A DNA stretch of 64,000 nucleotides from a virus (taxonomy: Duplodnaviria > Heunggongvirae > Uroviricota > Caudoviricetes). Under the pieces are notes generated by a model, which was not told the origin of the DNA, did not search any database, and saw nothing but the letters and a program-made list of their open reading frames with translations. The position numbers were made by a program, and so were the translations under genes. This document shows, piece by piece, positions 19,578-41,787 of the stretch. Numbering within the stretch: the first letter of the stretch is position 1; each line of letters starts with the position of its first letter. The DNA is taken from positions 13,578 through 77,577 of IMG/VR virus record IMGVR_UViG_3300042352_001190; one strand, written 5' to 3'.

Positions 19578-19578
19578 A

Positions 19579-25817: not shown

Positions 25818-25892
<75 letters not shown>

Positions 25893-25895
25893 AAA

Positions 25896-26939: not shown

Positions 26940-26996
26940 TAATAATTGAATTATTTCTATAAATATTTATCTGCGACAGATAACCCAGTTAACAAT

Positions 26997-27010
26997 CTTA
27001 GTATAATAAC
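26997..27010 (+). promoter_or_regulatory. TTAGTATAATAA promoter-like motif
   Basis: cttagtataataac lies upstream of tRNA-Leu. Confidence 0.45.
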
Positions 27011-27018
27011 TTAGTTAT

Positions 27019-27107
27019 GCCGACGTGATGAAATTGGTAGACATGAGAGACTTAAAATCTCTTGGGCCGTAATGCCCGTGCCGGTTCGACTCCGGCCGTC
27101 GGTACCA
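27019..27107 (+). tRNA. tRNA-Leu (TAA), CCA encoded
   Basis: Acceptor gccgacg/cgtcggt. D-loop has ggtagac. Anticodon arm agaga ctTAAaa tctct. Long variable arm. T-arm gccgg ttcgact ccggc. Confidence 0.85.
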
Positions 27108-27124
27108 AAAATAACCTCAACTAA

Positions 27125-27412
27125 ATGTCAGAGGATCTTACTAGAGAAGAGCGAGGAAAACTCCTTGCTGAAATGATGAAATTGGATCAAGAGGCTGGTT
27201 TATATGATGAGCCGTTTGATAATCCACTAATCAAAGAAAAATTAAAAGACTCAAACTATTACAAATTTGCTGGTATTGCGCCAGACGGCTTTGTCCTAGT
27301 TCCGACTGAAGTTATTGATATGTTAGATGACTTTGAAGAATGGAAGGATTTTAAATATAGAAAACTTGAATGGATTGAAGAAAAATCTAAACAGGTTTTA
27401 AGAGTAAAATAA
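27125..27412 (+). CDS. hypothetical acidic protein
   Basis: ORF track. Confidence 0.45.
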   Translation: MSEDLTREERGKLLAEMMKLDQEAGLYDEPFDNPLIKEKLKDSNYYKFAGIAPDGFVLVPTEVIDMLDDFEEWKDFKYRKLEWIEEKSKQVLRVK

Positions 27413-27423
27413 AATAAAAAGAA

Positions 27424-27696
27424 ATGGTAAACGTACTTTATTTTTCAGCACCATGGTGTGGACCTTGTAGAACATTTGGACCAGTTATGGAAAAGGTTGC
27501 TGAACACTTTAATGAAAATGATTTAGTTGAAATTACTAAAGTAAATGCAGATGAAGATCCTGATACTGCTGCTCTGCATGGTATTAGATCAATTCCTGCG
27601 CTAGTCTATTTAAAAGATAGCGAAACTGTGCATCAAACAGTTGGTGTAAAAGCACAAGCTGATATTATTGAAAAAATTAATGAGCTGTTAGCTTAA
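27424..27696 (+). CDS. trx: thioredoxin
   Basis: APWCGPCR active-site motif in a ~90-aa thioredoxin-fold protein. Confidence 0.8.
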   Translation: MVNVLYFSAPWCGPCRTFGPVMEKVAEHFNENDLVEITKVNADEDPDTAALHGIRSIPALVYLKDSETVHQTVGVKAQADIIEKINELLA

Positions 27697-27703
27697 TTAG
27701 TAT

Positions 27704-28747
27704 ATGAGTGAACCTATATTAGGAGTACATGCATTCTATGCAACTGATGTCGATGAGGGTATGTTTAAATCAGTTGAACTATTGTGTCAACTAACGTCGG
27801 CTCTCTATTGGAGAAAAAACTTTGGGCCAATAGGATTATACATTAGCCCAGAAAGAGAAGCTCAACTATTCCACTATGGTCTACATAATGCCTATTCCTT
27901 TGTTGATACAATTCATCATGAACAAGTATTAATGAATGGTAGCCCTAGATTTTGGGCCTATCCTAAAATGATGATTGCAAAACACGTTTCGCTTGACTTT
28001 AACAGATTTTGCATGATTGATACGGATCTCTATATTAAGTCTAGAGATTTTTTTAATACTGATGCAAAGATCCTAACTTTTCATGGTGAAATAACAAATT
28101 CTACCAAATATCCAGATGTGGGATATGTAGATGGACCAGACCTATACAAAATTGCAGAATTGGAAAGTCCAGTTGATAAGTGGTCACCTAGAGCAGTTAA
28201 CACTGCAATTCTCTATTGTAATGGAGCTAGCGAATTTATTCATGAGTGGATGTATCATGTTGATCAAATTGTAGAAAACAGCTATAAGTGGGAACCTATT
28301 ATTGGAGCAGGCGATCAAATTTTTGTAGAACAATATTTGTTAGCGAATTTAGCTGAGGCTAGAGGAATCGATATTGAAACTTACCTTAAATCTGATTGGA
28401 TTCCTGGTGCAAAAATTAATGTTACGCATCTTGATCCAGAAATGGAGGCATGGATTCACAATGAACCGATTGAACTAGCTAAACAAAAATTTGATAATGT
28501 CTTACATATTTGGGGTCTAAAACATAATTTAAATTATGCAGTAGTTAGACTTCAAATTTTAGGTAGAATTCTAGAAGATTTAGATCGAGATTTTCCAGGC
28601 ATTGATCAGTCATATCCAATTCTATTAGCAGAGGCTAGAGAATTGTATAAAGACCAACGCGACCATTACTTAGGTATATTATCTAAAGATAAACCTAAAC
28701 AAAGAAAAAATGGAAAATCAAAAAAACTTCGCCCAACAACTAGTTGA
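27704..28747 (+). CDS. hypothetical protein with a DxD motif
   Basis: CMIDTDLYI could be a GT-A DxD, but no other support was seen. Confidence 0.45.
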   Translation: MSEPILGVHAFYATDVDEGMFKSVELLCQLTSALYWRKNFGPIGLYISPEREAQLFHYGLHNAYSFVDTIHHEQVLMNGSPRFWAYPKMMIAKHVSLDFNRFCMIDTDLYIKSRDFFNTDAKILTFHGEITNSTKYPDVGYVDGPDLYKIAELESPVDKWSPRAVNTAILYCNGASEFIHEWMYHVDQIVENSYKWEPIIGAGDQIFVEQYLLANLAEARGIDIETYLKSDWIPGAKINVTHLDPEMEAWIHNEPIELAKQKFDNVLHIWGLKHNLNYAVVRLQILGRILEDLDRDFPGIDQSYPILLAEARELYKDQRDHYLGILSKDKPKQRKNGKSKKLRPTTS

Positions 28748-29039
28748 GAAAGCAACATCTCTTCTTAAGAGAATTGGAACAGTTGCAGTTTTAGCCAGTG
28801 CACTAATCGCAGGATTCTGTATTGGTTATTATTATGAACTAGCCTTAAACAAAGTCAAAGGAGAAGCTTGGAGAGAGGCTAAAACTCTTAAAAGTACGTC
28901 GATTGCCGTGAATGAAAAGGAAGAGCTATTGCTTATCGATAGAAAGACTGGGGTTTATACAATCTATTCTGATTCAATTGGACGTGTTATTTTTAACATA
29001 TATGCTCAAAAGGCATATGTAAATGCAACTGGCCACTAA
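28710..29039 (+). CDS. single-TM membrane protein
   Basis: VAVLASALIAGFCIGYYY. Confidence 0.4.
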   Translation: MENQKNFAQQLVEKATSLLKRIGTVAVLASALIAGFCIGYYYELALNKVKGEAWREAKTLKSTSIAVNEKEELLLIDRKTGVYTIYSDSIGRVIFNIYAQKAYVNATGH

Positions 29040-29048
29040 AACTAAAGT

Positions 29049-29549
29049 ATGGGAGTAAGATCATTTAAGACTCTCATTGTATTGGCTGGAATCTTGGCAT
29101 TCGGTTTCCTTTGGAGACTATTACACACTGAAAAACCTAAAGAGCTAAACAGCGGAACAATCGATGAGAAGTCACCGCCAAGTTTAGCTCTTTATTATTA
29201 TTTAGAAAAGTATTCTGAAGAATATGGTGTGCCATTCCACATTGCAATAGGAGTAGCTCGAGAAGAAACAGGTTATAAGGGACCATTTCATTGGAAATAC
29301 AATCCTAAACTAACCTCATCTGCGGCAGCATATGGTGCAATGCAGATTCAGGTCCCAACCGCAAATTTTATTTGGGATAAACCTGTGACTAAGAAACAAT
29401 TACTAAACAATCTTGAACTAAATGTTCAAATTTCAATGAAACTTTTAGCATATTTGTATAAAAGATATGATAACTGGGCGGTTGCATTGGGTTGTTATAA
29501 TACAGGAAGGCCCCTAGTTAATGATTATGCAAGACGCATAGTTAAATAA
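29049..29549 (+). CDS. membrane-anchored lytic transglycosylase (SLT domain)
   Basis: N-terminal TM. EETGY ... SSAAAYGAMQIQVPTA matches the SLT ES...AGA.GLMQ motif. Confidence 0.65.
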   Translation: MGVRSFKTLIVLAGILAFGFLWRLLHTEKPKELNSGTIDEKSPPSLALYYYLEKYSEEYGVPFHIAIGVAREETGYKGPFHWKYNPKLTSSAAAYGAMQIQVPTANFIWDKPVTKKQLLNNLELNVQISMKLLAYLYKRYDNWAVALGCYNTGRPLVNDYARRIVK

Positions 29550-29695
29550 ACTAAAAGCCACATGGAAAACTGGGATCCAAATGACCATCAAGGTCGTAGT
29601 AAAGAGCAAGTTGAAGCAAATGAAAAAATCGCTACTGTTGCAGTTGCAGCTTTACTATTACTGATAATTGGTTTTACTATTAAAATACTATTCTA

Positions 29696-29935
29696 ATGAA
29701 AGAAACAGCTAAAGCAAAATTGCACTCGTTCCTAAACATCATATTTTATGTGATGGTTACTGTAAATTTCATTGTTCCTATTTCTCTGCTTGCACTTTGT
29801 ACAATCGCATTAGGACACCTAGAAAATCAACACTGGTCTATTAATTGGGCAGTTAGAGTTTCACTATGTCTTGCTATTGTAGAAACCTGTGCACAGATAA
29901 TTAGAACTGTGAAACTTTTCAGGAATAAGAAGTAA
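29696..29935 (+). CDS. small two-TM membrane protein
   Basis: Hydrophobic segments IIFYVMVTVNFIVPISLLALCTIALG and VSLCLAIVETCAQI. Confidence 0.35.
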   Translation: MKETAKAKLHSFLNIIFYVMVTVNFIVPISLLALCTIALGHLENQHWSINWAVRVSLCLAIVETCAQIIRTVKLFRNKK

Positions 29936-29957
29936 ATAATACTGAAGAAGAGAGAAT

Positions 29958-29969
29958 TAGAGCCTCTCC
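29958..29969. repeat. left arm of a 12-bp perfect inverted repeat flanking gene 30044..30835
   Basis: ttagagcctctc is the reverse complement of gagaggctctaa at 30847..30858. Confidence 0.5.
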
Positions 29970-30043
29970 TTGTTCGCCTCGGGTTAATAGCCCTTGAATG
30001 ATCCCATGGTCATGAAGAGGTAAGCAAAAAATATAAATCTAAA

Positions 30044-30835
30044 ATGTATACACTACAAGAACAAAAGAAGTGTTCGGTGAATATCACCAGCAACAAAAAT
30101 CGTATTAAACAATACGAAAGTTCAGTCTACTTAAAAGACGGTCAACAATTTGAATTGGAAATCTTTAATCCTCACCAATTCAAAGTCTTAGCAAAAATTT
30201 CAATTAACGGTAGAGAAATTTCTCAAGCCGGTTTGGTAATCAGACCTGGCCAAAGAATTTACCTTGAGCGTTATATTGACGTTGCTAAAAAATTCAAGTT
30301 TGAAACTTATGAAGTTGAAGACTCTAATGAATCCAAAGAGGCAATCGCTAAAAATGGAGAAGTTAAAGTTGAATTCTTTTATGAGCAAAACTTAAGAGGA
30401 AATTACTGGTATGGTAATTCAATGACAATTAATTCAAATAATTGGAATGGATCACACACTACTACAATTAACCCAAATACATTCTTTACCACGACTGGAA
30501 CTAGTCAACTTGGATCAAATATTAGTTATACAAGTTCAAGCAGTGTGGGTAGTTTGAGTTATGGTGGAACCACTGTTAATAATATTTCAATGCCAGTCGC
30601 TGGCTCGCTTGAAACAGGCAGAATTGAAAAGGGTTCTAATTCAAAACAAAAATTCTCTGAAGAAAACGGATCCTATAATTGGTGGGTTAATGAAACTGTA
30701 ATTATAAAACTCCTACCACTTTCTAAAAAACCAGTTGAAGTTACTGAAATACGTAACTACTGCTGTGGATGCGGCTCACGTATCAAAAAATCTAGTTGGA
30801 AGTTTTGCCCTAGCTGTGGCGAATCTTTAGACTAA
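30044..30835 (+). CDS. hypothetical protein with a C-terminal zinc ribbon
   Basis: CCGCGSRIKKSSWKFCPSCG at the C-terminus. The gene is flanked by inverted repeats. Confidence 0.5.
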   Translation: MYTLQEQKKCSVNITSNKNRIKQYESSVYLKDGQQFELEIFNPHQFKVLAKISINGREISQAGLVIRPGQRIYLERYIDVAKKFKFETYEVEDSNESKEAIAKNGEVKVEFFYEQNLRGNYWYGNSMTINSNNWNGSHTTTINPNTFFTTTGTSQLGSNISYTSSSSVGSLSYGGTTVNNISMPVAGSLETGRIEKGSNSKQKFSEENGSYNWWVNETVIIKLLPLSKKPVEVTEIRNYCCGCGSRIKKSSWKFCPSCGESLD

Positions 30836-30846
30836 AATCAGAACAG

Positions 30847-30858
30847 AGAGGCTCTAAC
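30847..30858. repeat. right arm of the 12-bp inverted repeat
   Basis: gagaggctctaa. Confidence 0.5.
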
Positions 30859-30898
30859 TCACTTCTTTTTAGTATATTAGTTTTAAATCAAAATAGGA

Positions 30899-31237
30899 AT
30901 GGAAGATTTACTATACAAACTAGGCTGGCCAGGTAGAATGATCTCAGCAAGCAAAAGCGGTTATCGTGAGCAATACCCAGATAACTTGTCAATCTTTAAT
31001 GCTAATGTGTGCACTAATGAGGGAAAGATTTGGTGGGGAGATATTGATGTTACTCTTAGCAAAGAAGATTTAATTAATTTGGCAGTAGGCACTGGCAAAA
31101 CTATCTATGTACTCTATGAAATGGACGGTCGATTTGAAAATGAAGACAATCCAAAAATTGGAGAAGCTGCTGTTAAGTTTTTACCAGATGGTACAGTTGA
31201 ATTAAAAGAGAGCCTTAGGGAATACTATACACTTTAA
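30899..31237 (+). CDS. hypothetical protein
   Basis: ORF track. Confidence 0.45.
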   Translation: MEDLLYKLGWPGRMISASKSGYREQYPDNLSIFNANVCTNEGKIWWGDIDVTLSKEDLINLAVGTGKTIYVLYEMDGRFENEDNPKIGEAAVKFLPDGTVELKESLREYYTL

Positions 31238-31311
31238 GGTCCTTTAGCTCAGTTGGTTAGAGCAGCTCGCTCATAACGAGAAGGTCACAGGTTCGAGTCC
31301 TGTATGGACCA
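31238..31311 (+). tRNA. tRNA with CAT anticodon (elongator Met or lysidine-modified Ile2)
   Basis: Acceptor ggtcctt/atggacc with one mismatch. Anticodon loop ctCATaa. T-arm acagg ttcgagt cctgt. It is the third CAT tRNA in the window. Confidence 0.65.
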
Positions 31312-31333
31312 CTAATTTTTTAACAAAACAAAT

Positions 31334-31564
31334 ATGAAAATAGCGTCAACCTTAGGACTAGTCATACTATATTTTTTAGTGGCAGTCGGAGCAGTCTCAA
31401 CTATTGAGTTTGCATTTACATTAATGAATAAAGCAGATACTCTTTCGTTTATCGGAGGTCTTGGACTATTCATTATTACTGGAGCTTTTATTGTAGCATT
31501 AATTATACATATGATTAATGAATATAAGGGAGCCAAAGAATTTACTAACAAAAACGAAAACTAA
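31334..31564 (+). CDS. small two-TM membrane protein (possible partner of the SPFH protein)
   Basis: LVILYFLVAVGAVS and LGLFIITGAFIVALIIHMI. Confidence 0.35.
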   Translation: MKIASTLGLVILYFLVAVGAVSTIEFAFTLMNKADTLSFIGGLGLFIITGAFIVALIIHMINEYKGAKEFTNKNEN

Positions 31565-31565
31565 C

Positions 31566-32489
31566 ATGGCAGAAAAAAGCTATTGGGAACTCGAAAGAGA
31601 ACGTGAAGAACAAGAAAAATTAAATAAACAACTAAAAATTAAAAAAATGGTAAAGAAAATCGTAATCGGAATTGCTGCATTTATTGCACTAATCGTATTG
31701 TTTCAATCATGTGAGCGAATTGACGCTGGACATGTAGGTGTAAAAGTTAATTTGTATGGAACTGGAAAGGGCGTTGATGATGTAACTGAGTGTACAGGTT
31801 GGGTATTTTACAATCCAATCTCTACAAAAATCTATGAATTTCCAACATTTATTCAACATAAAGAATATAAAAAGACAGAGGACATTGATAATTCATTTGT
31901 AGTCAATTCCAAAGATGGTAGTGAATTCCAAGTTTCTCCTATTATGAACTATTCAGTTCAGCGAGAAAAAGTACCCGCAATCTTTGCTAAATATCGCAGA
32001 AGCCTACCTGAAATTGAAGAAGGTTTCTTAAAGACAGCAGTATATGATGCGTTCCGTTTAGCTACTAACAAATATACAGCAGACGAGCTAATTTCTAATA
32101 GAGCAGTATTTGAAGTAGAGGTACGAAGATTATTGGAGGGCCAATTACTTAAAGAAGGCTTTATTATTAATCAATTTACATCTAACTTAATCTATCCTGA
32201 AACATTTAAGAAATCTATTGAGGCCAAGAATAACGCAGTGCAAGCAGCGCTTAGGGCAGAAAATGAAGTTAAAACAGCTGAAGCACAAGCCAAAATTAAA
32301 ATTGCAACGGCAAATGGTAATGCTCAGGCAATGTTAACTGCGGCCAAGGCTGAAGCAGAAGCAAATAGTCTAAAACAGAAAACTATTACTCCAATGCTAT
32401 TACAATTAGAGTGGATTAACAAATGGAATGGTAGATTGCCTGAAACAATGTTAGGTGATAAATCCAATACAATGATTGGACTTAAGTAA
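31566..32489 (+). CDS. SPFH/band-7 domain membrane protein (HflC/prohibitin-like)
   Basis: N-terminal TM. DAGHVGVKVNLYGTGKGV..GWVFYNPISTKIYEFP matches the SPFH core. The C-terminus is an Ala/Glu/Lys-rich coiled coil. Confidence 0.6.
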   Translation: MAEKSYWELEREREEQEKLNKQLKIKKMVKKIVIGIAAFIALIVLFQSCERIDAGHVGVKVNLYGTGKGVDDVTECTGWVFYNPISTKIYEFPTFIQHKEYKKTEDIDNSFVVNSKDGSEFQVSPIMNYSVQREKVPAIFAKYRRSLPEIEEGFLKTAVYDAFRLATNKYTADELISNRAVFEVEVRRLLEGQLLKEGFIINQFTSNLIYPETFKKSIEAKNNAVQAALRAENEVKTAEAQAKIKIATANGNAQAMLTAAKAEAEANSLKQKTITPMLLQLEWINKWNGRLPETMLGDKSNTMIGLK

Positions 32490-32490
32490 A

Positions 32491-32994
32491 ATGAAAGCAG
32501 ACGACCTACTTAAATTAATAGAGTCTGAACCAAACAAAGTTAAATTGCTGATTGAGGCACTAGACCAGCTTAAGGCTGGTTTAGGCTTTCAGCAAGATTT
32601 GTTAACTCCAGGTTTTATTAAAGAATGGATGATTTCTGAAATTCTTGGACATAAGTGCCATACTACTAAGCATGGAGCTGATGCCTATTCACAATGTGGT
32701 AAGGAGCAATATGAATACTTATCATGTAAAGAGGGTGGCGGATTTCAGTTAGATCGAATTCATGATGGTAATCTTGTTAGAATAACTAGAAACTCTGCAT
32801 TTTTCTTTGCAGAATTCGATGTCAAAACTGGCTTAATTTGCCAGAGAATTTGGAAAGGTTCTACTCAAGTTTTCTTAAATGAAGCCCTTCGTAAACTAGA
32901 GAAAATGTCAGCTTCATCTAATCACTTAACATTTCCAATTAAGTGGGTAAAAACCAATTGTGAATTAGTATATTTAAATCCAGATATAACTTAA
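32491..32994 (+). CDS. hypothetical protein, possible 2H-family cyclic phosphodiesterase (tentative)
   Basis: Two H-x-T motifs (CHTTK and NHLTF) lie ~85 aa apart in a ~170-aa protein. The stop is 1 nt before the kinase start. Confidence 0.3.
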   Translation: MKADDLLKLIESEPNKVKLLIEALDQLKAGLGFQQDLLTPGFIKEWMISEILGHKCHTTKHGADAYSQCGKEQYEYLSCKEGGGFQLDRIHDGNLVRITRNSAFFFAEFDVKTGLICQRIWKGSTQVFLNEALRKLEKMSASSNHLTFPIKWVKTNCELVYLNPDIT

Positions 32995-32995
32995 T

Positions 32996-33409
32996 ATGAA
33001 GAACTTAATTTTATTAAGAGGCGTACCAGGATCTGGTAAAAGTACAACTGCTAAGCTATTGGGAGCAGGTGGAGCAGGCTATGCTCATTTTGAAGCTGAC
33101 CAATATTTTATGGAGGATGGCGAATACAAGTTTGATCCTACTAAATTAAAGGAGGCCCATGCTTGGTGTAGAAATAGTGTTGAACATGCAATGCTGCTAA
33201 ATCATACAACTGGCTATAATAGTACAATTATAGTATCTAATACATTTACTCAAGAATGGGAAATGGAAGCTTACTATGATTTGGCAAAATCTTGGGGTTA
33301 TACTACATTTAGTCTTATTGTTGAAAATAGACACGGTGGAGTAAATGAACATGGAGTACCTGATGAAGTACTAACTAAAATGAAAGATCGTTTTGAAATA
33401 AAATTATAA
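32996..33409 (+). CDS. P-loop polynucleotide 5'-kinase-like protein (T4 Pnk kinase-domain-like)
   Basis: LILLRGVPGSGKSTTAKLL is a Walker A motif in the first beta-strand. The size and pattern fit the T4 Pnk kinase domain. The stop abuts the ligase start. Confidence 0.65.
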   Translation: MKNLILLRGVPGSGKSTTAKLLGAGGAGYAHFEADQYFMEDGEYKFDPTKLKEAHAWCRNSVEHAMLLNHTTGYNSTIIVSNTFTQEWEMEAYYDLAKSWGYTTFSLIVENRHGGVNEHGVPDEVLTKMKDRFEIKL

Positions 33410-33410
33410 A

Positions 33411-34538
33411 ATGGAAAATCAAAATTCAGTTTGCTATGTAGCAAAAATTAATGAAATTAAACCTATTGAAGGTGCTGATAAAATTGAATTAGCTGTAGTC
33501 GGTGGGTGGAATGCTATCATACAAAAAGGTCAATATGCAGAAGAAGATCTAATTGTAGTTGCTACCACTGATGCAGTTATTCCAAAAGAATTGTCTGATG
33601 CAATTGATGTAACTAGCTACCTTAGAAAAGGTGGACGAGTACGTACCATTAAATTGAGAGGTGTATATTCTGAATGCTTAATTATCCCATTGAAGCATAT
33701 TCCATTTATGGAAAATTACTATGAAGGTAAGGACATGATGTATGCAATGGATATTTGGAAATACGAACCTCCAGTTAAGCAAGTTCAATTGGCTAGTGGT
33801 AAAAAAATTAGATATTCCGAAAATCCAAACTTTCATATCTACTATAAATTTCCAAATGCAAAGAATGTGCCAGATCTTTTTACTGAAGAAGATTGGGTTG
33901 AGATTTCTCGTAAGATCCATGGAACTAATGCGCGTTATGGTATTGTAAAGAAAAATAAACTTTCTCTATTTGATAAGGTAAAGAAATTGTTTGGTGCCAA
34001 ATGGGTTGATTATGAATTTGTAGTCGGTTCCCATAATGTAGAAAAGGGAAGTGATTCACAGGGGTTCTACGATACAAATGTATGGTATGAAATTGCCGAT
34101 AAATATAACATTAAGGAAGTTTTATGGAAGTTCGCCAAGGACACCGAAAGATTCCCAGACGGTATTGGCACAGGCGTAGTTTTATACGGAGAGATTTATG
34201 GAGCAGGCATTCAAAAGAATTATGATTACGGACTAAAGGAAATTGAATTTGCAGGATTTGACCTGGAAATTAATGGAAAATACTGTTCAACTGACGAGTC
34301 TTTTAATTTTGTTGGAATTGAAATGAACTTACCTTATGTTGATGTATTGTATGTTGGAGATTGGAATAAGGAAATTCAAGATATGTATGTTTTTGATAAC
34401 TTTATCTATGGCACCAAAGTTCCTCATGAAGGAGTTGTAGTTAAACACCATACTGGAGATCGCCATAAGGTTGCAAAAGTAATCAATCCAGATTACTTGA
34501 TCTATGCTGAGAACTGGGAAGTGGGAGACAGCCATTAA
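33411..34538 (+). CDS. ATP-dependent RNA ligase with an N-terminal tRNA-binding OB domain (Rnl2/Rnl5-like)
   Basis: N-domain KPIEGADKIELAVVGG ... IKLRGVYSECLII matches the Myf/EMAP-type tRNA-binding fold. The nucleotidyltransferase has motif I KIHGTN, motif IV EGVVVK and motif V KVAKV. Confidence 0.7.
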   Translation: MENQNSVCYVAKINEIKPIEGADKIELAVVGGWNAIIQKGQYAEEDLIVVATTDAVIPKELSDAIDVTSYLRKGGRVRTIKLRGVYSECLIIPLKHIPFMENYYEGKDMMYAMDIWKYEPPVKQVQLASGKKIRYSENPNFHIYYKFPNAKNVPDLFTEEDWVEISRKIHGTNARYGIVKKNKLSLFDKVKKLFGAKWVDYEFVVGSHNVEKGSDSQGFYDTNVWYEIADKYNIKEVLWKFAKDTERFPDGIGTGVVLYGEIYGAGIQKNYDYGLKEIEFAGFDLEINGKYCSTDESFNFVGIEMNLPYVDVLYVGDWNKEIQDMYVFDNFIYGTKVPHEGVVVKHHTGDRHKVAKVINPDYLIYAENWEVGDSH

Positions 34539-34625
34539 CAAAAATAATTAGGTATATTAGTATCATGAAGAACAAATTTACAAGCAAAGACGTTATTGTA
34601 GCTGCACTTATTGCACTATGGTTAG

Positions 34626-34994
34626 TTGGAGTTATTTGGGGAATTACACATTCAATTTAATTATATGAATTTATACATTTATCCAGGTATTAGACAAGTA
34701 GAAGACGCCCAATTCTTAGTTGTAACAGAGGAGGGCGAGGTTCTATATTCACATGTTTGCTCAAGTTATACCTTTGCCAAAAGCGATTTGGTCGAAGGTC
34801 GTCCTGAAAGGATTGATGAACTCAATCAAAAGTATGGTAAAGGCGGATGGTCTCTGCAGTTCATTGATGAAGAGGGTCAGACCGATATTACAATGGACGA
34901 ATTGTGGGAGCGCAATCAAGAATTTTATAAAGCATCAGAACTTCCAATCGAAGGTCCTCTTTCTGAGGATGCAGATTGTGGATGCGGTCAATAA
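34626..34994 (+). CDS. hypothetical acidic protein
   Basis: ORF track; the start may be an internal ATG. Confidence 0.4.
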   Translation: MELFGELHIQFNYMNLYIYPGIRQVEDAQFLVVTEEGEVLYSHVCSSYTFAKSDLVEGRPERIDELNQKYGKGGWSLQFIDEEGQTDITMDELWERNQEFYKASELPIEGPLSEDADCGCGQ

Positions 34995-35000
34995 TTTAAT

Positions 35001-35240
35001 ATGAATCCAGCAAATTTAAAAAGATATATGCCAGTAAGTAAAACTATAAAAGTCGCTGATGCATTCAGGACTAATGATTTGAGCTTGACTCCAGGAGGAT
35101 TTGAAGTTTCAATTACTCTAAATAATGGACAAACTTTAGTTTATGATAAAATTAAAAGTCCTAAACGATATATCCAAAGTTTGTCTAATTATAGTGATAT
35201 TGTATCAGTTACAGTTGATGGTAAACCTTTTAATTTTTAA
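35001..35240 (+). CDS. hypothetical protein
   Basis: ORF track; head-to-tail small-gene array. Confidence 0.4.
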   Translation: MNPANLKRYMPVSKTIKVADAFRTNDLSLTPGGFEVSITLNNGQTLVYDKIKSPKRYIQSLSNYSDIVSVTVDGKPFNF

Positions 35241-35243
35241 CAA

Positions 35244-35507
35244 ATGAAAACTTTTGAAGATTTAGAATTTAAAGATCATCCAAATGGAATGGGTGGAGTA
35301 CAAGCTAAAATCCAATTTAGTAATGGATTTGGGGCAAGTATTGTTAAAACCCCATTTTCGTATGGTGGATCTAAAGGCCTATACGAATTAGCAGTATTTG
35401 GAAAGGATGGCAGCATTACTTATGATACTCCAATTACTAATGATGTATTAGGTTACTTAAGTGAAGTGGCAGTAACCCAAACTCTATCTAAAATTCAAGC
35501 TCTATAA
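35244..35507 (+). CDS. hypothetical protein
   Basis: ORF track. Confidence 0.4.
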   Translation: MKTFEDLEFKDHPNGMGGVQAKIQFSNGFGASIVKTPFSYGGSKGLYELAVFGKDGSITYDTPITNDVLGYLSEVAVTQTLSKIQAL

Positions 35508-35508
35508 C

Positions 35509-35796
35509 ATGGCAAAGAAAAAATCTCCTGAAGAAATGGCTAAGATTCTCATTGATAAAATGTTTGAGATCGCTGGTCATGATGTGAAGTATGAAGATAT
35601 CGTTGAGCGTAAGGATAATTGGTTTTGGGATTGGACTATGACAATGGAACAGCGTAATCAATGGGTAGAATGGGGAGTTGACGTTTTACAAAAGAATAAT
35701 AAACACAGAACCCGAAAGCAAGCTGAAATTGATATGAGCTGGGTTGATATGCAATGGGGTCTTAAAGTATCAGATTATGAGCACACTAACAATTAA
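35509..35796 (+). CDS. hypothetical protein
   Basis: ORF track. Confidence 0.4.
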   Translation: MAKKKSPEEMAKILIDKMFEIAGHDVKYEDIVERKDNWFWDWTMTMEQRNQWVEWGVDVLQKNNKHRTRKQAEIDMSWVDMQWGLKVSDYEHTNN

Positions 35797-36085
35797 TACA
35801 GATTCAAGTCACTTGACTATGAAAGGATCGGGTAAAGTTACTATTAAGAGTAGTATTACTATTGCAGGTAGTGGGACCCATTTACCAATTGAGTGCACTG
35901 CAGATTTTAGTAATATTCCAACTAATCTACATCAAATTTATTTTGATGCATTTAAGTATCAATATGCAGGTCAAGTAAATGTTCACAATAATACTGAACC
36001 TTTGACTATTAAAGAACAAAAAAGTGAATGGCGCTTAAATAGAATCGCTGAGATTATTCTTGGTGCAATTAAATCAAAGAGGTAA
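35744..36085 (+). CDS. hypothetical protein
   Basis: ORF track; the start is probably an internal ATG near 35777. Confidence 0.35.
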   Translation: MICNGVLKYQIMSTLTINTDSSHLTMKGSGKVTIKSSITIAGSGTHLPIECTADFSNIPTNLHQIYFDAFKYQYAGQVNVHNNTEPLTIKEQKSEWRLNRIAEIILGAIKSKR

Positions 36086-36318
36086 TGAGTAGATACACTA
36101 AAAAACTAGATAACGGGAATACTATTGTATATGGTTGGGACCATGCACTTGGATATTTTTATGACGTCTGGGAAAATTATGATACCAAAGAAGAAAAATG
36201 CATCAAGGAAAGATGCTCGCTATTCGGAATGTCTAAAAACGAATTAGTGGATGCTATTAGCGAAATCAAGGCAAATCCAGATTTTATGCAAGCTCTTGCA
36301 TTGGACCTGCCACATTAA
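36085..36318 (+). CDS. hypothetical protein
   Basis: ORF track. Confidence 0.4.
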   Translation: MSRYTKKLDNGNTIVYGWDHALGYFYDVWENYDTKEEKCIKERCSLFGMSKNELVDAISEIKANPDFMQALALDLPH

Positions 36319-36327
36319 AATTAAATT

Positions 36328-36789
36328 ATGTACAAATTATTAATTGTGATAGGGATCACCTTTATCGCAAAGTTTTCATTTAGCCAAGACCTGGTTGAAG
36401 TTCCACCTTTTACAAAGGATTCAACTCTTAACAGTTTTATTCTTCATTGGATTGGTAAACCATATAAACTTGGTGGTAGTACTGAAGCAGGAATTGACTG
36501 TTCTCAATTTAATAAAAGGCTCTATCAAGATGTTTATGAAATTAAATTAGAGGGGGTTTGTTATAAACAATGGAACCAAACTATCCGAATTAAAAAGGAC
36601 AGTCTTGAAATTGGGGACTTAGTATTTTTTAGAAGTAGTCAATCTCCTTCGGGTTGGCACTGTGGAACCTATATTGGAGAAACTATGTTTGTTCATGCTG
36701 CAAATAGGGCTGAGGGTGTAAAGGTAAGTTCCTTAATGGAACCTCGATATAAGGCCGCCTACAAAGGGGCAGGAAGACTTTCAGATTAA
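36328..36789 (+). CDS. secreted NlpC/P60 family cell-wall peptidase
   Basis: Signal peptide present. GIDCSQF holds the catalytic Cys. GDLVFF and HCGTYIG with a downstream H fit the NlpC/P60 order. Confidence 0.65.
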   Translation: MYKLLIVIGITFIAKFSFSQDLVEVPPFTKDSTLNSFILHWIGKPYKLGGSTEAGIDCSQFNKRLYQDVYEIKLEGVCYKQWNQTIRIKKDSLEIGDLVFFRSSQSPSGWHCGTYIGETMFVHAANRAEGVKVSSLMEPRYKAAYKGAGRLSD

Positions 36790-36875
36790 TTTAGTGTTAT
36801 TTTTAAAAAAATATCACATTTTTAAAAACTTGTGGAGGAAGCGTTGTTAAATAACTAAAATTAACAGCTGCTACT

Positions 36876-37112
36876 ATGTCTACCCTACTAAAATCACCAG
36901 TTACCATTGACGATACTTATATCGGCAAACGCTTTACTATGGTAAATGCTAGAGGTGAGGAAGTAGAAGATACAGTTAAAGAGTTTGTAACCATTTGGAT
37001 GGCTAAAACTCATAGAAAAACTAATACTAGAGTTTATCGACCGCAGTTGTCAGTTAAAAGCCCCAGTGAAAAACTCTATTCACTAGCAGAGATCTATTTT
37101 CATCTCGATTAA
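36876..37112 (+). CDS. hypothetical protein
   Basis: ORF track. Confidence 0.4.
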   Translation: MSTLLKSPVTIDDTYIGKRFTMVNARGEEVEDTVKEFVTIWMAKTHRKTNTRVYRPQLSVKSPSEKLYSLAEIYFHLD

Positions 37113-37173
37113 TCCATTTCTTTTTTGTTAGTACAAGACCATTGTAGCTAAGACACAAAATAATCTTAAAACA

Positions 37174-37476
37174 ATGGAATTAACGTCATTTGCTTTAGGT
37201 ATGCTAACGATGGTTGCTGTTGCATTTGCAATAGTAGTTGTTATTGGTTTGCTTAAGGTTACTAAACAAGCAAAAGAGATTGAAAATCTCCACAAAGGTC
37301 TCGATCAAGCAACTCGAGATTACCACCAAGATCTTCAAGTATGGAGAACAGATTTAGAATTAGAAATAAAAAGAGTCGAATTAGAGTGCAAATCCTACAC
37401 TGATTCAAGACTTGATAAAAAATTAGGATTGACAGGTTCAAAGTCACAAAAAGAGAATACACTAATTAATAGCTAA
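37174..37476 (+). CDS. single-TM membrane protein
   Basis: FALGMLTMVAVAFAIVVVIGLL. Confidence 0.4.
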   Translation: MELTSFALGMLTMVAVAFAIVVVIGLLKVTKQAKEIENLHKGLDQATRDYHQDLQVWRTDLELEIKRVELECKSYTDSRLDKKLGLTGSKSQKENTLINS

Positions 37477-37478
37477 TT
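37467..37478 (+). promoter_or_regulatory. TTAGTATAATA promoter-like motif
   Basis: attagtataata lies upstream of tRNA-Pro. Confidence 0.45.
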
Positions 37479-37499
37479 AGTATAATAGTTTTAGCTACT

Positions 37500-37576
37500 C
37501 GGGATGTAGCGTAGTCCGGTATCGCGCCTGCTTTGGGAGCAGGAGGCCGTAGGTTCGAATCCTGCCATCCCGACCA
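37500..37576 (+). tRNA. tRNA-Pro (TGG), CCA encoded
   Basis: Acceptor cgggatg/catcccg. Anticodon arm cctgc ttTGGga gcagg. T-arm gtagg ttcgaat cctgc. Followed by A-CCA. Confidence 0.85.
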
Positions 37577-37579
37577 AAT

Positions 37580-37595
37580 TTTAGGTATAATATAA
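37580..37595 (+). promoter_or_regulatory. TTAGGTATAATATAA promoter-like motif
   Basis: Ends 3 nt before the ATG at 37598. Confidence 0.4.
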
Positions 37596-37597
37596 TT

Positions 37598-37786
37598 ATG
37601 GAGAAGATGAGTAAATTTTTAATTTGGACACAGATCGTAATTAACTTACTACTTATGGTAGTTTTAGTAATTGCAGCCTTTGACAAAACTATGTTAGATG
37701 TAGTTGATGTCAGATGGTGGACCCTGTTTATTTTAGTTAATTTGTACAGTGATAAACTGTGGAACGACTTAAATAAAATGCGCTAA
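37598..37786 (+). CDS. small membrane protein
   Basis: LIWTQIVINLLLMVVLVIAAF. Confidence 0.3.
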   Translation: MEKMSKFLIWTQIVINLLLMVVLVIAAFDKTMLDVVDVRWWTLFILVNLYSDKLWNDLNKMR

Positions 37787-37794
37787 CAAAACGA

Positions 37795-37869
37795 GGTCCT
37801 GTAGTTCAACGGATAGAACAACTGCCTTCTAAGCAGTGGATCCAAGTTCGATTCTTGGCGGGACTACCA
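37795..37869 (+). tRNA. tRNA-Arg (TCT), CCA encoded
   Basis: Acceptor ggtcctg/cgggact. D-arm gttc aacggata gaac. Anticodon arm actgc ctTCTaa gcagt. T-arm ccaag ttcgatt cttgg. Confidence 0.85.
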
Positions 37870-37881
37870 CAAAATTTAGAT

Positions 37882-38142
37882 ATGAAAAAAGTATATTTTA
37901 TAATTGGAACATTTCTTACTCTAGCTGCACTTGGCTGTGAATCACCTAAGGTTGCTGAAGTTATCGAAAAGGATTGTATTGTAACTGAAGTTGAATATTT
38001 TCAAATTGGAGAAAAACACACACTACAAATAGATCCTGAATGGAGAGTCACTACTGATTGTGGAACAACCTATACTTCTAGGCGAGCAATGAGAGTTGGT
38101 GACACTGTTCAAATTAAAATTGTAAAGTATAAGAAAAATTAG
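37882..38142 (+). CDS. small lipoprotein
   Basis: MKKVYFIIGTFLTLAALGCES has a signal peptide and a lipobox. The track ORF starts inside the tRNA; the ATG at 37882 is preferred. Confidence 0.45.
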   Translation: MKKVYFIIGTFLTLAALGCESPKVAEVIEKDCIVTEVEYFQIGEKHTLQIDPEWRVTTDCGTTYTSRRAMRVGDTVQIKIVKYKKN

Positions 38143-38151
38143 TATAATAAA
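38139..38151 (+). promoter_or_regulatory. TTAGTATAATAAA promoter-like motif
   Basis: Lies 15 nt upstream of the 38166 ATG. Confidence 0.45.
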
Positions 38152-38165
38152 TTAAAATCTATACA

Positions 38166-38375
38166 ATGAAAGAACATTTAGCAAATATGCTGAAATCAGC
38201 AGCTGAAGCAGATAGACAAAAGGCTCTTTTAACGCTTGAATTACTAAGTAATCATGCAGTAGGAATTGGAGACCATTCAACTGGAGATTTCTATAAAAAT
38301 GCCGAAGAGGCTATTACAATGTTAGTAGATGCAGACGATCGCATTGCAGCAGTTGAAAAGTATCTAACTAAGTAA
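38166..38375 (+). CDS. hypothetical protein
   Basis: ORF track. Confidence 0.4.
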   Translation: MKEHLANMLKSAAEADRQKALLTLELLSNHAVGIGDHSTGDFYKNAEEAITMLVDADDRIAAVEKYLTK

Positions 38376-38384
38376 TAAATCCAC

Positions 38385-38466
38385 GCCCCTTTGGTGGAAT
38401 TGGTAGACACGCTAGACTTAGGATCTAGTGCCGCAAGGTTTGAGAGTTCGAGTCTCTCAGGGGGTA
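38385..38466 (+). tRNA. tRNA-Leu (TAG)
   Basis: D-loop ggaattggtagac. Anticodon arm ctaga ctTAGga tctag. Long variable arm. T-arm gagag ttcgagt ctctc. Confidence 0.85.
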
Positions 38467-38473
38467 CTCAATA

Positions 38474-38586
38474 CAAGAGTGGCGGAAACGACACATGTGG
38501 CCACATGTCGATAGATAGACGTGACCTCGCCCAGAGGTTGGTTGATAGGTAACTAAACCGTGAAGGTGCAAGTCCTTCCTCTTGTA
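38474..38586 (+). ncRNA. tRNA-like structured element with an internal 16-bp palindrome
   Basis: 5' acaagag pairs with 3' ctcttgt. T-arm-like gaagg tgcaagt ccttc. Internal perfect palindrome acatgtggccacatgt. Confidence 0.3.
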
Positions 38587-38590
38587 CAAC

Positions 38591-38622
38591 AGGACTGAAG
38601 CAATTCAGTCCTTTTTAGTTTT
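38591..38622 (+). terminator. rho-independent terminator
   Basis: aggactgaa gcaa ttcagtcct hairpin followed by tttttagtttt. Confidence 0.7.
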
Positions 38623-38636
38623 AGATAAATAACTGT

Positions 38637-39014
38637 ATGAAGAATCAAGTTAAACAGTTCGGAGAATTTATCAATGAAGGAAAACTTCAAAAGGATCAAA
38701 AAAAGATCTTTATTGAATTTGATGAATCTCGATTAATGGGAGCAACTAAAATTGCAGAAAATGCAAAGGAACGTGGCGGTAATGCAATGCTAACCTATAA
38801 TCACTTTGTTGTTAAGTTGCCATATTACAAAAAAGCAAAAAAAGGTTGGACTGTTGAAGACCGTGATGCTGCAATAAAAGAGTACAATTCTTTGGTTGAT
38901 GAACTTACTTCAACTAAAGATACCTTAAAAATCAAGCAAACTGACTTTCAAAAGTTAGTTGGAAAAATTGAAGTTCTTGGAGAACTCATTATCAAATACA
39001 ATGAAATATATTAA
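38637..39014 (+). CDS. hypothetical protein
   Basis: ORF track. Confidence 0.45.
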   Translation: MKNQVKQFGEFINEGKLQKDQKKIFIEFDESRLMGATKIAENAKERGGNAMLTYNHFVVKLPYYKKAKKGWTVEDRDAAIKEYNSLVDELTSTKDTLKIKQTDFQKLVGKIEVLGELIIKYNEIY

Positions 39015-39558
39015 AGTATACGAAGATTTTGATCTTGATAAATTTATGCAAGATCCTGAAGCAGAGTTTCAGAAAAATGAAGAAAATCCTGAAATTGAGC
39101 CGGGAGATTATGTAACTAGCTATAGAGGGCCAGGGCAAGTAATTGATATGGATGACGATTTTATCAAAATTGAATTATTGGATTCTAGCAAAAAAATTGT
39201 TAGAGTTCCAAAGGACCTTGTTAGTAAAACCAAAAAGAAAGATGTCTATCATGACAATAAATCTCATGCTGAAGAAATTGCAGAGATTGGTGAAGAGGTT
39301 AGACGGTATGCTGAGATTATTTCTCCAGATGGAGAAGATCCAATGAATGTCAATGCTAAAGCAATTGCAGGTTTTATTGAAGATACCCTAATCGATGTAC
39401 TAAGAATGTATAAGAAAGATAAAAATGTCACATATCTTCCTGGTTACGATAATGTCGTAAATGGTATTGCACTAATTGCAGATATTGCTGAACAAGCAGA
39501 TCCATCTATTTCGGATAGAATTCAAGCTGCTCTTGAAAAATTTTATGAATTAGGATAA
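38959..39558 (+). CDS. hypothetical acidic protein
   Basis: ORF track; the start is likely the internal ATG near 39000. Confidence 0.45.
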   Translation: MEKLKFLENSLSNTMKYIKVYEDFDLDKFMQDPEAEFQKNEENPEIEPGDYVTSYRGPGQVIDMDDDFIKIELLDSSKKIVRVPKDLVSKTKKKDVYHDNKSHAEEIAEIGEEVRRYAEIISPDGEDPMNVNAKAIAGFIEDTLIDVLRMYKKDKNVTYLPGYDNVVNGIALIADIAEQADPSISDRIQAALEKFYELG

Positions 39559-39583
39559 CTAAATTAACATAAAGGATATAAGA

Positions 39584-39611
39584 AAGAGTAGCTAATCACT
39601 ACTCTTTTTTT
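39584..39611 (+). terminator. rho-independent terminator
   Basis: agagtag ctaatca ctactct hairpin followed by a T7 run. A tgtataataag motif follows immediately. Confidence 0.7.
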
Positions 39612-39645
39612 GTATAATAAGATTAAGTAAAAAGATAAAACTGTA

Positions 39646-41781: not shown

Positions 41782-41787
41782 CAGATT

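What the first reader, a model, noticed from the sequence alone, without database searches (positions are those of the whole stretch)
32491..34538. Translationally coupled three-gene RNA-repair cassette: 2H-like protein, polynucleotide kinase, RNA ligase with tRNA-binding OB domain
Three genes are separated by 1-nt gaps at 32994/32996 and 33409/33411. They encode, in order: a ~170-aa protein with two H-x-T motifs ~85 aa apart, which is the 2H cyclic phosphodiesterase pattern, with tentative support; a P-loop kinase resembling the T4 Pnk kinase domain; and an Rnl-type ligase (motifs KIHGTN, EGVVVK, KVAKV) with an N-terminal Myf/EMAP-type tRNA-binding OB domain. Together this is the full healing-and-sealing chemistry for broken tRNAs. 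It is split into three proteins and ordered differently from T4 Pnkp/Rnl1 or fungal Trl1. It sits in a genome that carries its own 25-tRNA set. A phage countermeasure against host anticodon nucleases is the obvious hypothesis. The OB-domain ligase plus a stand-alone 2H enzyme would be an unusual combination.
Basis: partly seen in the sequence, partly recalled or inferred. Interest (0 to 1): 0.8.

Follow-up and report, generated by a model that had tools for sequence, protein, structure and literature searches.

The report
RNA-repair gene pair plus stray restriction nuclease
The supposed three-gene RNA-repair cassette is really an ordinary phage kinase-plus-RNA-ligase pair sitting next to an unrelated, methylase-less restriction-type nuclease, and phages that carry this nuclease almost completely lack the DNA word TATATA.

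Summary
The three ORFs, the 1-nt gaps and the ligase and kinase motifs are real. The "2H phosphodiesterase" reading of the first gene is wrong.

The likely 3'-end healers lie elsewhere in the window: a cREC "cyclic-phosphate processing" protein (19857..20309) and an MPPED2-like metallophosphoesterase (39646..40374). Both recur near this ligase in other phages.

Unexpected result: genomes carrying ORF1-family genes are almost free of TATATA. The window has 0 sites against about 33 expected, and 80 further loci have 7 against 181 (z -18). Cellular relatives sit directly behind an N6-adenine methylase in 77 of 80 loci, whereas 134 of 142 phage or metagenomic ORF1 loci have none. ORF1 is therefore probably a solitary TATATA-cutting endonuclease protected by site avoidance.

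The repair pair is a known kind. The nuclease is the interesting part.

The parts
32491..32994 (+). ORF1: solitary PvuII-fold (PD-(D/E)xK) type II restriction-endonuclease homolog. Catalytic D64 and E75 are retained. The canonical Lys position is L77, with K60 as the probable relocated Lys. Not part of the RNA-repair pair.
32996..33409 (+). ORF2: stand-alone polynucleotide 5'-kinase of the T4 Pnk kinase-domain type (P-loop K15/S16, D35, R112). It has no phosphatase domain.
33411..34538 (+). ORF3: Rnl5/DraRnl-type ATP-dependent RNA ligase. N-terminal OB domain (aa 10-94, nt 33438..33692) plus NTase domain (aa 163-358, nt 33897..34484). Motif I K168, III E261, IV E340, V K353/K356. No C-terminal appendage.
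   Evidence: PF21189 1e-13 plus PF09414 8e-12. TIGR02306 9e-29. phrog_968 8e-57. NgrRnl 5cot E 4e-13. Motif positions and conservation in 120 homologs.
19857..20309 (+). cREC-domain protein: candidate 2',3'-cyclic-phosphate / 3'-end healing enzyme for the repair pathway (predicted activity only).
   Evidence: PF20274 cREC_REC 6.7e-22, 78 bits against a cutoff of 27. Found within 3 kb of the orthologous ligase in 15 of 80 viral loci and next to Metallophos in L040. Prediction and ligase linkage described in PMC7824862.
39646..40374 (+). MPPED2-like binuclear metallophosphoesterase: second candidate 3'-end healing enzyme.
   Evidence: Metallophos 4e-14. PDB MPPED2 3rl4 E 1e-40. Within +-10 kb of the orthologous ligase in 29 of 80 loci, 13 of them within 3 kb. 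Cultured-phage precedent of phosphoesterase-ligase-PNK blocks.
31238..31312 (+). tRNA with CAT anticodon (tRNA-Ile2-like acceptor stem). It marks the upstream edge of the variable insert that carries ORF1. The same tRNA precedes ORF1 in relatives L013 and L007 and is absent from that position in L043.
   Evidence: ARAGORN. Alignment A3. Synteny.
31518..32489 (+). SPFH/Band-7 gene: an insertion specific to this window between the tRNA and ORF1. Context only, not part of either system.
   Evidence: Band_7 6e-22. Absent at this position in L013, L007 and L043.

Best explanation
The locus holds two independent things in a gene-swapping hot-spot of the tRNA region of a large T4-like phage (probably of Bacteroidota). 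(1) ORF2 and ORF3 are a conserved phage RNA end-healing and sealing pair. The Pnk-type kinase phosphorylates 5'-OH ends. The Rnl5-type ligase is adenylylated at K168 and seals 3'-OH/5'-PO4 breaks, by analogy with NgrRnl and DraRnl preferentially nicks held in a duplex such as a tRNA stem. Removal of the 2',3'-cyclic or 3' phosphate is supplied in trans by the cREC protein (19857..20309), the MPPED2-like metallophosphoesterase (39646..40374), or both. (2) ORF1 is not a repair enzyme. It is a solitary type II restriction-endonuclease homolog of the PvuII fold, inserted sporadically. It most likely cuts the palindrome TATATA with a D64/E75 metal site and a relocated Lys (K60). The phage protects itself by having purged TATATA from its genome rather than by methylation, so AT-rich host DNA or competing phage DNA would be cut. 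Shown here: folds, family assignments, gene linkage, presence/absence polymorphism, TATATA depletion, and the methylase partner in cellular relatives. Inferred: all enzymatic activities, the RNA substrate, TATATA as the actual cleavage site, and the biological target.
Against: No activity was assayed. ORF1 lacks the canonical ExK lysine (L77), so it could be inactive or non-canonical. ORF1 itself does not hit Pfam Endonuc-PvuII or any PDB sequence. Some ORF1-bearing loci keep TATATA sites: L007 has 3 of 4.3 expected, L222 has 5 of 6.3, and L129 has 2. The closest relatives without ORF1 (L043-47) also have zero TATATA, so avoidance can persist without the gene and might be imposed by a host R-M system. 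Rnl5 enzymes are nick-sealing ligases whose physiological substrates are unknown (PMC4408790), so tRNA repair is not established. The kinase lacks the T4 R38 equivalent (F38). The ligase scores below the TIGR02306 cutoff (100 against 151 bits). The kinase is absent from relatives L007-9, so the ligase may not strictly need it.
Confidence: 0.75

Rival explanations
1. One reading: a translationally coupled three-gene healing-and-sealing cassette in which ORF1 is a 2H cyclic phosphodiesterase that opens 2',3'-cyclic phosphates for the kinase and ligase.
For: Two H-x-T triplets 88 residues apart in ORF1. 1-nt gaps between the genes. ORF1 abuts the ligase or kinase in the three closest lineages.
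Confidence: 0.03
2. ORF1 is a free-standing homing endonuclease (a selfish gene) that targets a long site in the phage tRNA region and spreads among co-infecting phages. TATATA avoidance would be unrelated.
Confidence: 0.12
3. TATATA depletion is imposed from outside, by a host restriction-modification system or a lineage-specific sequence constraint. ORF1 has another specificity, or is a non-catalytic DNA-binding protein.
For: Phages commonly purge host R-M sites (PMC6286503). L043-47 lack ORF1 yet have zero TATATA. L007 and L222 carry ORF1 but keep sites. The canonical catalytic Lys is missing. Some pools also avoid other palindromes such as GTGCAC and CTTAAG.
Against: TATATA is the single top outlier in five independently drawn ORF1 pools from diverse phages. 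Ligase-bearing phages of similar GC from the same kind of metagenomes show a ratio of 0.81. D64, E75 and K60 are under strict conservation. The partner methylase in cellular relatives is adenine-specific, which is compatible with a site made only of A and T.
Confidence: 0.22
4. The kinase-ligase pair does not repair tRNA. It seals RNA-ended nicks in duplex nucleic acid, for example RNA:DNA hybrids or ribonucleotide patches arising during phage DNA replication or repair.
Against: The pair recurs with predicted cyclic-phosphate processing enzymes (cREC, metallophosphoesterase), which fits 2',3'-cP/5'-OH RNA breaks made by ribotoxins (PMC7824862). The pair sits within the phage tRNA region. A TROVE/Ro60 RNA-quality-control homolog lies near the ligase in L036.
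Confidence: 0.3

Closest known systems
R.PvuII and type IIP restriction endonucleases of the PvuII family (Pfam PF09225)
   Different: Only about 20% sequence identity and no direct Pfam hit. The ExK lysine is replaced by Leu, with a conserved Lys four residues before the Asp. The phage copies have no methylase. The inferred site is TATATA, not CAGCTG, which occurs 24 times in the window. The partner methylase in cellular relatives is N6-adenine (M.MboIIA-like), whereas M.PvuII is, from my own knowledge, an N4-cytosine enzyme.
T4 Pnkp plus Rnl1 tRNA repair (countermeasure to the PrrC anticodon nuclease)
   Different: The kinase is a bare 137-aa domain without the HAD phosphatase. The ligase is Rnl5-type (N-terminal OB, nick-sealing), not Rnl1. 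3'-end healing is predicted to be done by separate cREC and metallophosphoesterase proteins encoded kilobases away. No cognate ribotoxin is known.
Rnl5 family: Naegleria gruberi NgrRnl and Deinococcus radiodurans DraRnl (TIGR02306)
   Same: N-terminal OB plus C-terminal NTase with no C-terminal appendage. D54 and K117 align with NgrRnl OB residues D53 and K121. Motifs I, III, IV and V are present. Full-length match to TIGR02306.
   Different: Motif I is KIHGTN (Rnl2-like His) instead of KxDG. The NgrRnl R4 equivalent is absent. The TIGR02306 score (100 bits) is below the trusted cutoff (151). It belongs to a large metagenomic phage clade of at least 5,279 sequences.
Phage phosphoesterase - RNA ligase - PNK blocks (for example Pseudomonas phage Pyxpy02 and Aeromonas phage phiA009) and the cREC-linked RNA-ligase systems of Iyer et al. 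2021
   Same: The same 137-aa kinase family (45-49% identity) abuts an RNA ligase. HD, calcineurin-like or cREC phosphoesterases lie nearby.
   Different: In those phages the order is ligase then kinase, and the ligase belongs to another family (annotated Rnl1-like). Here the order is kinase then Rnl5-type ligase, and the phosphoesterases are dispersed.

Membership tests
2H phosphoesterase (LigT / CPDase) | Two strictly conserved catalytic H-x-(T/S) motifs | tested here: not met
   H57-x-T59 is invariant only in the close family. H57 becomes I, N or V in wider relatives. In the second motif T147 is Gly in most homologs.
2H phosphoesterase (LigT / CPDase) | 2H fold with the two His motifs juxtaposed | tested here: not met
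PvuII-type PD-(D/E)xK restriction endonuclease | PvuII fold | tested here: met
PvuII-type PD-(D/E)xK restriction endonuclease | Catalytic Asp and Glu (PvuII D58, E68) | tested here: met
   D64 and E75 are the only invariant columns in a 22-sequence superfamily alignment that includes PvuII. Each is present in 215 of 227 sequences.
PvuII-type PD-(D/E)xK restriction endonuclease | Catalytic Lys in the (D/E)xK motif (PvuII K70) | tested here: not met
   This position is an invariant Leu (L77). K60 is present instead and is mutually exclusive with K77 (183 / 20 / 0), which suggests migration of the lysine.
PvuII-type PD-(D/E)xK restriction endonuclease | Match to Pfam PF09225 above the gathering score | tested here: not met
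   ORF1 gives no hit at E <= 1. Relatives reached by its profile do hit: P0502 scores 29.8 bits against a cutoff of 25, and P0369 scores 24.3.
Type II restriction-modification system | Cognate DNA methyltransferase encoded alongside | tested here: not met
   No methylase among about 60 window ORFs. Only 8 of 142 phage or metagenomic loci have one. The feature is met for cellular relatives, 77 of 80.
Type II restriction-modification system | Sequence-specific cleavage at a short palindrome | not testable with these tools
   Indirect evidence only: TATATA is the most depleted hexamer in five ORF1-bearing pools.
Rnl5 (DraRnl/NgrRnl) RNA ligase | N-terminal OB domain plus C-terminal NTase, with no C-terminal appendage | tested here: met
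   PF21189 covers aa 10-94 and PF09414 covers aa 163-358. The protein ends 18 residues after motif V. NgrRnl OB homology E 4e-13.
Rnl5 (DraRnl/NgrRnl) RNA ligase | NTase motifs I, III, IV and V with the motif I lysine | tested here: met
   K168, E261, E340 and K353/K356. Conserved in 115-120 of 120 homologs.
Rnl5 (DraRnl/NgrRnl) RNA ligase | NCBIfam TIGR02306 equivalog cutoff | tested here: not met
   100.4 bits against a cutoff of 151.15, although the alignment is full-length, 5-339 of 341.
Rnl5 (DraRnl/NgrRnl) RNA ligase | Seals 3'-OH(RNA)/5'-PO4 nicks in duplexes | not testable with these tools
   Biochemical property of NgrRnl and DraRnl (PMC4408790).
T4 Pnk-type polynucleotide 5'-kinase | P-loop Lys/Ser and the catalytic Asp (T4 K15, S16, D35) | tested here: met
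   K15, S16 and D35 align with T4 Pnk. K15 and D35 are invariant in 21 homologs.
T4 Pnk-type polynucleotide 5'-kinase | Kinase-domain fold closest to polynucleotide kinases | tested here: met
T4 Pnk-type polynucleotide 5'-kinase | Arg contacting the acceptor nucleotide phosphate (T4 R38), and a fused 3'-phosphatase domain | tested here: not met
   Position 38 is an invariant Phe. The protein is 137 aa with no second domain.
Trbp/EMAPII/Myf-type tRNA-binding OB domain (Pfam PF01588) | Match to tRNA_bind above the gathering score | tested here: not met
   E 0.02-0.04 and 14-15 bits against a cutoff of 27, in 2 of 5 N-domains. PF21189 is strong in all five. In NgrRnl the OB domain contacts the ATP gamma-phosphate (PMC7261155).
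cREC (cyclic-phosphate processing receiver domain) | Match to PF20274 above cutoff, and linkage to RNA ligases | tested here: met
   78.4 bits against a cutoff of 27 for window 19857..20309. Within 3 kb of the orthologous ligase in 15 of 80 loci. Its activity is a published prediction only (PMC7824862).

The most novel reading that the evidence does not exclude
ORF1 founds a widespread, unannotated family of methylase-less, phage-borne type II restriction endonucleases with a relocated catalytic lysine. These enzymes cut TATATA. The phages protect themselves purely by having eliminated the site from their genomes, and they use the enzyme to shred AT-rich host DNA or the genomes of competing phages. 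From my own recall, which I could not check against REBASE, no characterised restriction enzyme recognises TATATA, so this would also be a new specificity.
Probability: 0.5. Interest if true: 0.75.

Novelty: new variant of a known kind. Interest (0 to 1): 0.5.

Why it matters
For the finding as written, the result is corrective. The kinase plus Rnl5-type ligase is one more example of a known phage RNA-repair module, and the '2H' gene is a misreading. Annotators should look to the cREC and metallophosphoesterase genes for the missing 3'-end healing step.

The by-product is more interesting. A conserved ~165-aa family has no Pfam, PHROG or NCBIfam annotation and is absent from all 50,697 deposited phage genomes. 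It is a restriction-type nuclease carried without a methylase by many uncultured aquatic phages. Its presence goes with near-total loss of one hexamer (7 sites against 181 expected).

That gives a directly testable prediction of an enzyme specificity. It also suggests a self-protection strategy for a virus-encoded nuclease, site avoidance instead of modification, and a possible tool enzyme for AT-rich DNA.

Tried and rejected
- **ORF1 family scans:** ORF1 against Pfam, PHROGs, NCBIfam, PADLOC and PDB sequences, singly and as a profile, gave no significant hit. Only fold comparison and a transitive profile search resolved it.
- **hhalign to PvuII:** the family alignment against the PvuII sequence was statistically weak (E 0.027). 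I used it only for residue register, which alignment A4 later corroborated.
- **PvuII site:** I tested whether CAGCTG is avoided. It is not (24 copies).
- **Zn site:** a possible Zn site formed by H54, H57, H61 and C79 was rejected as a family feature, because H57, H61 and C79 are not conserved in wider relatives.
- **L007 137-aa gene:** I considered that the 137-aa gene at L007:10287 was a displaced kinase. It is instead the homolog of window 38637..39014.
- **Deposited phages:** a nucleotide search of deposited phages found no close relative of the window.
- **NgrRnl structure paper:** it could not be retrieved, so what its authors say the OB domain resembles was not checked.
- **Archaeal-like contig:** L125 (GC 0.53) was uninformative for TATATA, with 0.1 expected.
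Full report
**1. Observation**

The three + strand ORFs exist exactly as described: 32491..32994 (167 aa), 32996..33409 (137 aa) and 33411..34538 (375 aa), with 1-nt gaps. The ligase motifs KIHGTN (168-173), EGVVVK (340-345) and KVAKV (353-357), the kinase P-loop, and two H-x-T triplets in ORF1 (H57, H145) are all present. ARAGORN finds 24 tRNA genes in the window, on both sides of the locus.

The 1-nt gaps are not special. 27 of 78 same-strand gene junctions in the window have gaps of 2 nt or less, and the upstream SPFH gene is also 1 nt from ORF1.

**2. ORF3 and ORF2**

ORF3 matches the PHA02142 OB-fold domain (PF21189, aa 10-94) and RNA_ligase (PF09414, aa 163-358). It aligns end to end with TIGR02306 (DRB0094/DraRnl family), though below the trusted cutoff at 100 against 151 bits, and it matches phrog_968. 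Its closest solved relative is the Naegleria gruberi ligase NgrRnl, the Rnl5 exemplar, at E 4e-13 through the OB domain.

Rnl5 is defined by an N-terminal OB plus a C-terminal NTase with no C-terminal appendage. It seals nicks whose 3'-OH strand is RNA, and it is already known in phages (PMC4408790, PMC7261155). ORF3 fits this architecture. Motif I is of the KxHGxN (Rnl2-like) type rather than KxDG.

tRNA_bind scores E 0.02-0.04, below its cutoff, in 2 of 5 N-domains.

**3. ORF1 is not a 2H enzyme**

No profile library recognises ORF1. It belongs to a conserved ~165-aa family with 138 hits. In that family the second 'H-x-T' is usually H-I-G.

A profile search of 1.8 billion representatives reaches relatives that hit Pfam Endonuc-PvuII, one of them above the cutoff.

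In a superfamily alignment that includes PvuII, the only invariant columns are D64 (PvuII D58) and E75 (PvuII E68). The PvuII K70 position is Leu in the ORF1 clade, which instead has K60. Over 227 sequences, K60 and K77 never co-occur (183 / 20 / 0). This is the pattern expected for a migrated catalytic lysine, although it may reflect a single evolutionary event.

**4. ORF1 is not part of the repair system**

Of 32 loci with an ORF1 homolog, only the closest clade has the ligase nearby (L013, L007-9), and L007-9 lack the kinase. Of 80 viral contigs with orthologs of the ligase (63-91% identity), one has ORF1, and it is the L013 contig again.

Four collinear relatives show four arrangements at this exact spot:

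| Genome | Arrangement |
|---|---|
| L043 | 112aa-KIN-LIG |
| L013 | 112aa-tRNA-ORF1-KIN-LIG |
| Window | 112aa-tRNA-SPFH-ORF1-KIN-LIG |
| L007 | 112aa-tRNA-ORF1-LIG |

The kinase allele in L043 is only 59% identical, within flanks that are 80-94% identical. This is an accessory-gene hot-spot in the tRNA region.

**5. The real repair module**

Counts for the 80 ligase loci:

| Gene near the ligase | Within +-10 kb | Within 3 kb |
|---|---|---|
| Kinase | 57 | 53 |
| MPPED2-like metallophosphoesterase | 29 | 13 |
| cREC-domain protein | 17 | 15 |

The kinase abuts the ligase in 18 loci, is always co-oriented, and is upstream in 56 of 57. L040 shows ligase..Metallophos-cREC within 3 kb.

The window encodes both phosphoesterases, but dispersed:
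- cREC at 19857..20309 (PF20274, E 7e-22).
- The metallophosphoesterase at 39646..40374 (PDB MPPED2, E 1e-40).

cREC is a published prediction of a 2',3'-cyclic-phosphate processing enzyme linked to RNA ligases (PMC7824862). Lambda-type metallophosphoesterases are known to have 2',3'-cyclic phosphodiesterase activity (PMC2190708, abstract). Cultured phages already show HD - phosphoesterase - RNA ligase - PNK blocks with this same kinase family.

So the pathway is a known kind: kinase for the 5' end, cREC or the metallophosphoesterase for the 3' end, and an Rnl5-type ligase for sealing. Whether the substrate is tRNA is inferred only.

**6. What ORF1 probably does**

The window contains no TATATA at all. 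The expectation is 32.6 +- 6.4 from dinucleotide shuffles and 13.3 from a Markov model, while ATATAT and the PvuII site CAGCTG are present at normal levels.

I scanned all hexamers without preselection. TATATA was the most depleted word in every ORF1-bearing pool:

| Pool | TATATA observed / expected | z |
|---|---|---|
| 16 dereplicated contexts | 5 / 68 | -10.8 (runner-up -4.8) |
| 4 held-out contexts | 0 / 11.9 | -4.9 |
| Distant family members (35-44% identity), three sub-pools | 0 / 30.4, 0 / 6.8, 0 / 9.2 | -7.8, -3.7, -4.3 |
| 80 further metagenomic loci | 7 / 181 | -18.1 |
| Control: 75 ligase-bearing loci without ORF1 | 834 / 1031 (ratio 0.81) | -8.7 |

Among the 80 further loci, 23 of the 25 with at least 3 expected sites have none.

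Cellular genomes hold 128 relatives at 33-53% identity. In 77 of the 80 fetched, a ~270-aa gene ends about 2 nt before the nuclease gene. That gene encodes an N6-adenine DNA methyltransferase (M.MboIIA E 4e-26, M.RsrI, CcrM). This is a classical M->R type II operon.

Only 8 of 142 phage or metagenomic ORF1 loci have any such methylase, and the window has none among about 60 ORFs scanned.

The simplest reading is that ORF1 is a solitary restriction endonuclease that cuts TATATA, and that its carriers are protected by site avoidance.

Caveats:
- L007 (3 sites), L222 (5) and L129 (2) carry the gene but keep sites.
- The ORF1-less close relatives L043-47 also have none, so an external agent could maintain the avoidance. 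That agent could be a host R-M system, or attack by ORF1-bearing competitor phages.
- No cleavage was measured.

**7. Further association**

In 9 of about 15 distinct contexts the ORF1 homolog lies within 250 nt of a tRNA gene. It is often directly behind a tRNA(CAT) with a tRNA-Ile2-like acceptor stem. This fits either a general hot-spot for accessory genes or selfish, homing-like spread. I rank the latter as a minor rival.

**8. Genome context**

The window comes from a large T4-like phage with a Gp20-type portal, topoisomerase II, ThyA, PRPP synthetase, ClpP/ClpB and a Tad6 anti-Thoeris homolog. One protein has a T9SS Por_Secre_tail, which points to a Bacteroidota host. No close relative exists among deposited phages.

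**9. Verdict**

- **Observation:** partly confirmed.
- **Interpretation:** partly supported. The kinase-ligase repair pair holds. The 2H enzyme and the three-gene cassette do not.
- **Novelty:** the repair pair is a new member of a known kind. The solitary PvuII-fold nuclease with TATATA avoidance is a new variant of a known kind, and it is the part worth following up experimentally.

Noticed in passing
window 1..64000: The hexamer TATATA is completely absent from the 64-kb window (dinucleotide-shuffle expectation 32.6 +- 6.4). ATATAT occurs 14 times. CACGTG is also absent (expected 3.3-6.6).
   Followed up: yes
window 19857..20309: A 150-aa protein with a cREC 'cyclic-phosphate processing receiver' domain (PF20274, E 7e-22) sits directly upstream of the main tRNA cluster. 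Homologs lie within 3 kb of the orthologous ligase in 15 of 80 viral loci.
   Followed up: partly
window 39646..40374 and 1711..2454: Two calcineurin-like metallophosphoesterases. The first is MPPED2-like (PDB E 1e-40) and recurs near the ligase in other phages. The second was not examined further.
   Followed up: partly
window 31238..31312; L013:5696-5770; L007:5697-5771; L001:5995-6068; L025:5913-5986; L026:5912-5988: ORF1-family genes often lie directly downstream of a tRNA with a CAT anticodon whose acceptor stem (GG(N)CC...) resembles tRNA-Ile2 rather than initiator or elongator tRNA-Met. In 9 of about 15 contexts the gene is within 250 nt of a tRNA.
   Followed up: partly
window 31518..32489: An SPFH/Band-7 gene (phrog_200) is inserted between the tRNA and ORF1 only in this window. 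It is absent at this position in collinear relatives L013, L007 and L043. Band_7 genes also occur near the ligase in L040 and some other loci.
   Followed up: partly
L043:9535-10011 against window 32996..33409: The kinase allele in the closest collinear relative is only 59% identical while flanking genes are 80-94% identical. L087 has an 82%-identical kinase next to a 67%-identical ligase. The kinase gene appears to be exchanged independently of the ligase.
   Followed up: no
L036:2154-3785 and L037:2154-3785: A TROVE (Ro60-like) protein is encoded about 1.2 kb upstream of an orthologous Rnl5-type ligase. This may be a link between Ro-type RNA quality control and RNA ligation in phages.
   Followed up: no
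window 7398..8129: Homolog of Tad6, a type I Thoeris inhibitor (PF25188, E 1e-15), which points to an anti-defence gene set in this phage.
   Followed up: no
window 61211..61720 (-) and 50315..50980 (+): Two further nucleases: a TnsA-like endonuclease N-terminal domain protein next to the T4-like portal gene, and a DNA/RNA non-specific endonuclease (Endonuclease_NS, E 1.5e-37).
   Followed up: no
window 11098..13029: A 643-aa protein with a cohesin domain and a T9SS Por_Secre_tail sorting domain. It suggests a Bacteroidota host. No Shine-Dalgarno-like motifs are visible upstream of the genes examined.
   Followed up: no
L003:3535-6570 and 6691-9726: A block of about 3.1 kb containing the ORF1 homolog and five upstream genes is tandemly duplicated on this contig. 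This is either a real duplication or an assembly artefact.
   Followed up: no
L134-L147 (pooled 94 kb): Besides TATATA, these phage contigs also lack GTGCAC (0 of 18) and CTTAAG (0 of 12), and nearly lack GCATGC (2 of 18). That suggests additional restriction pressures.
   Followed up: no
L125:10001-10465 (Marine Group II-like archaeal contig; also L232): A 53%-identical ORF1 relative lies on a cellular-looking contig with Topo VI, aconitase and a giant CARDB protein. The family spans phages, bacteria and archaea.
   Followed up: partly
window 22298..22969: A ClpP protease gene is embedded inside the tRNA gene cluster.
   Followed up: no
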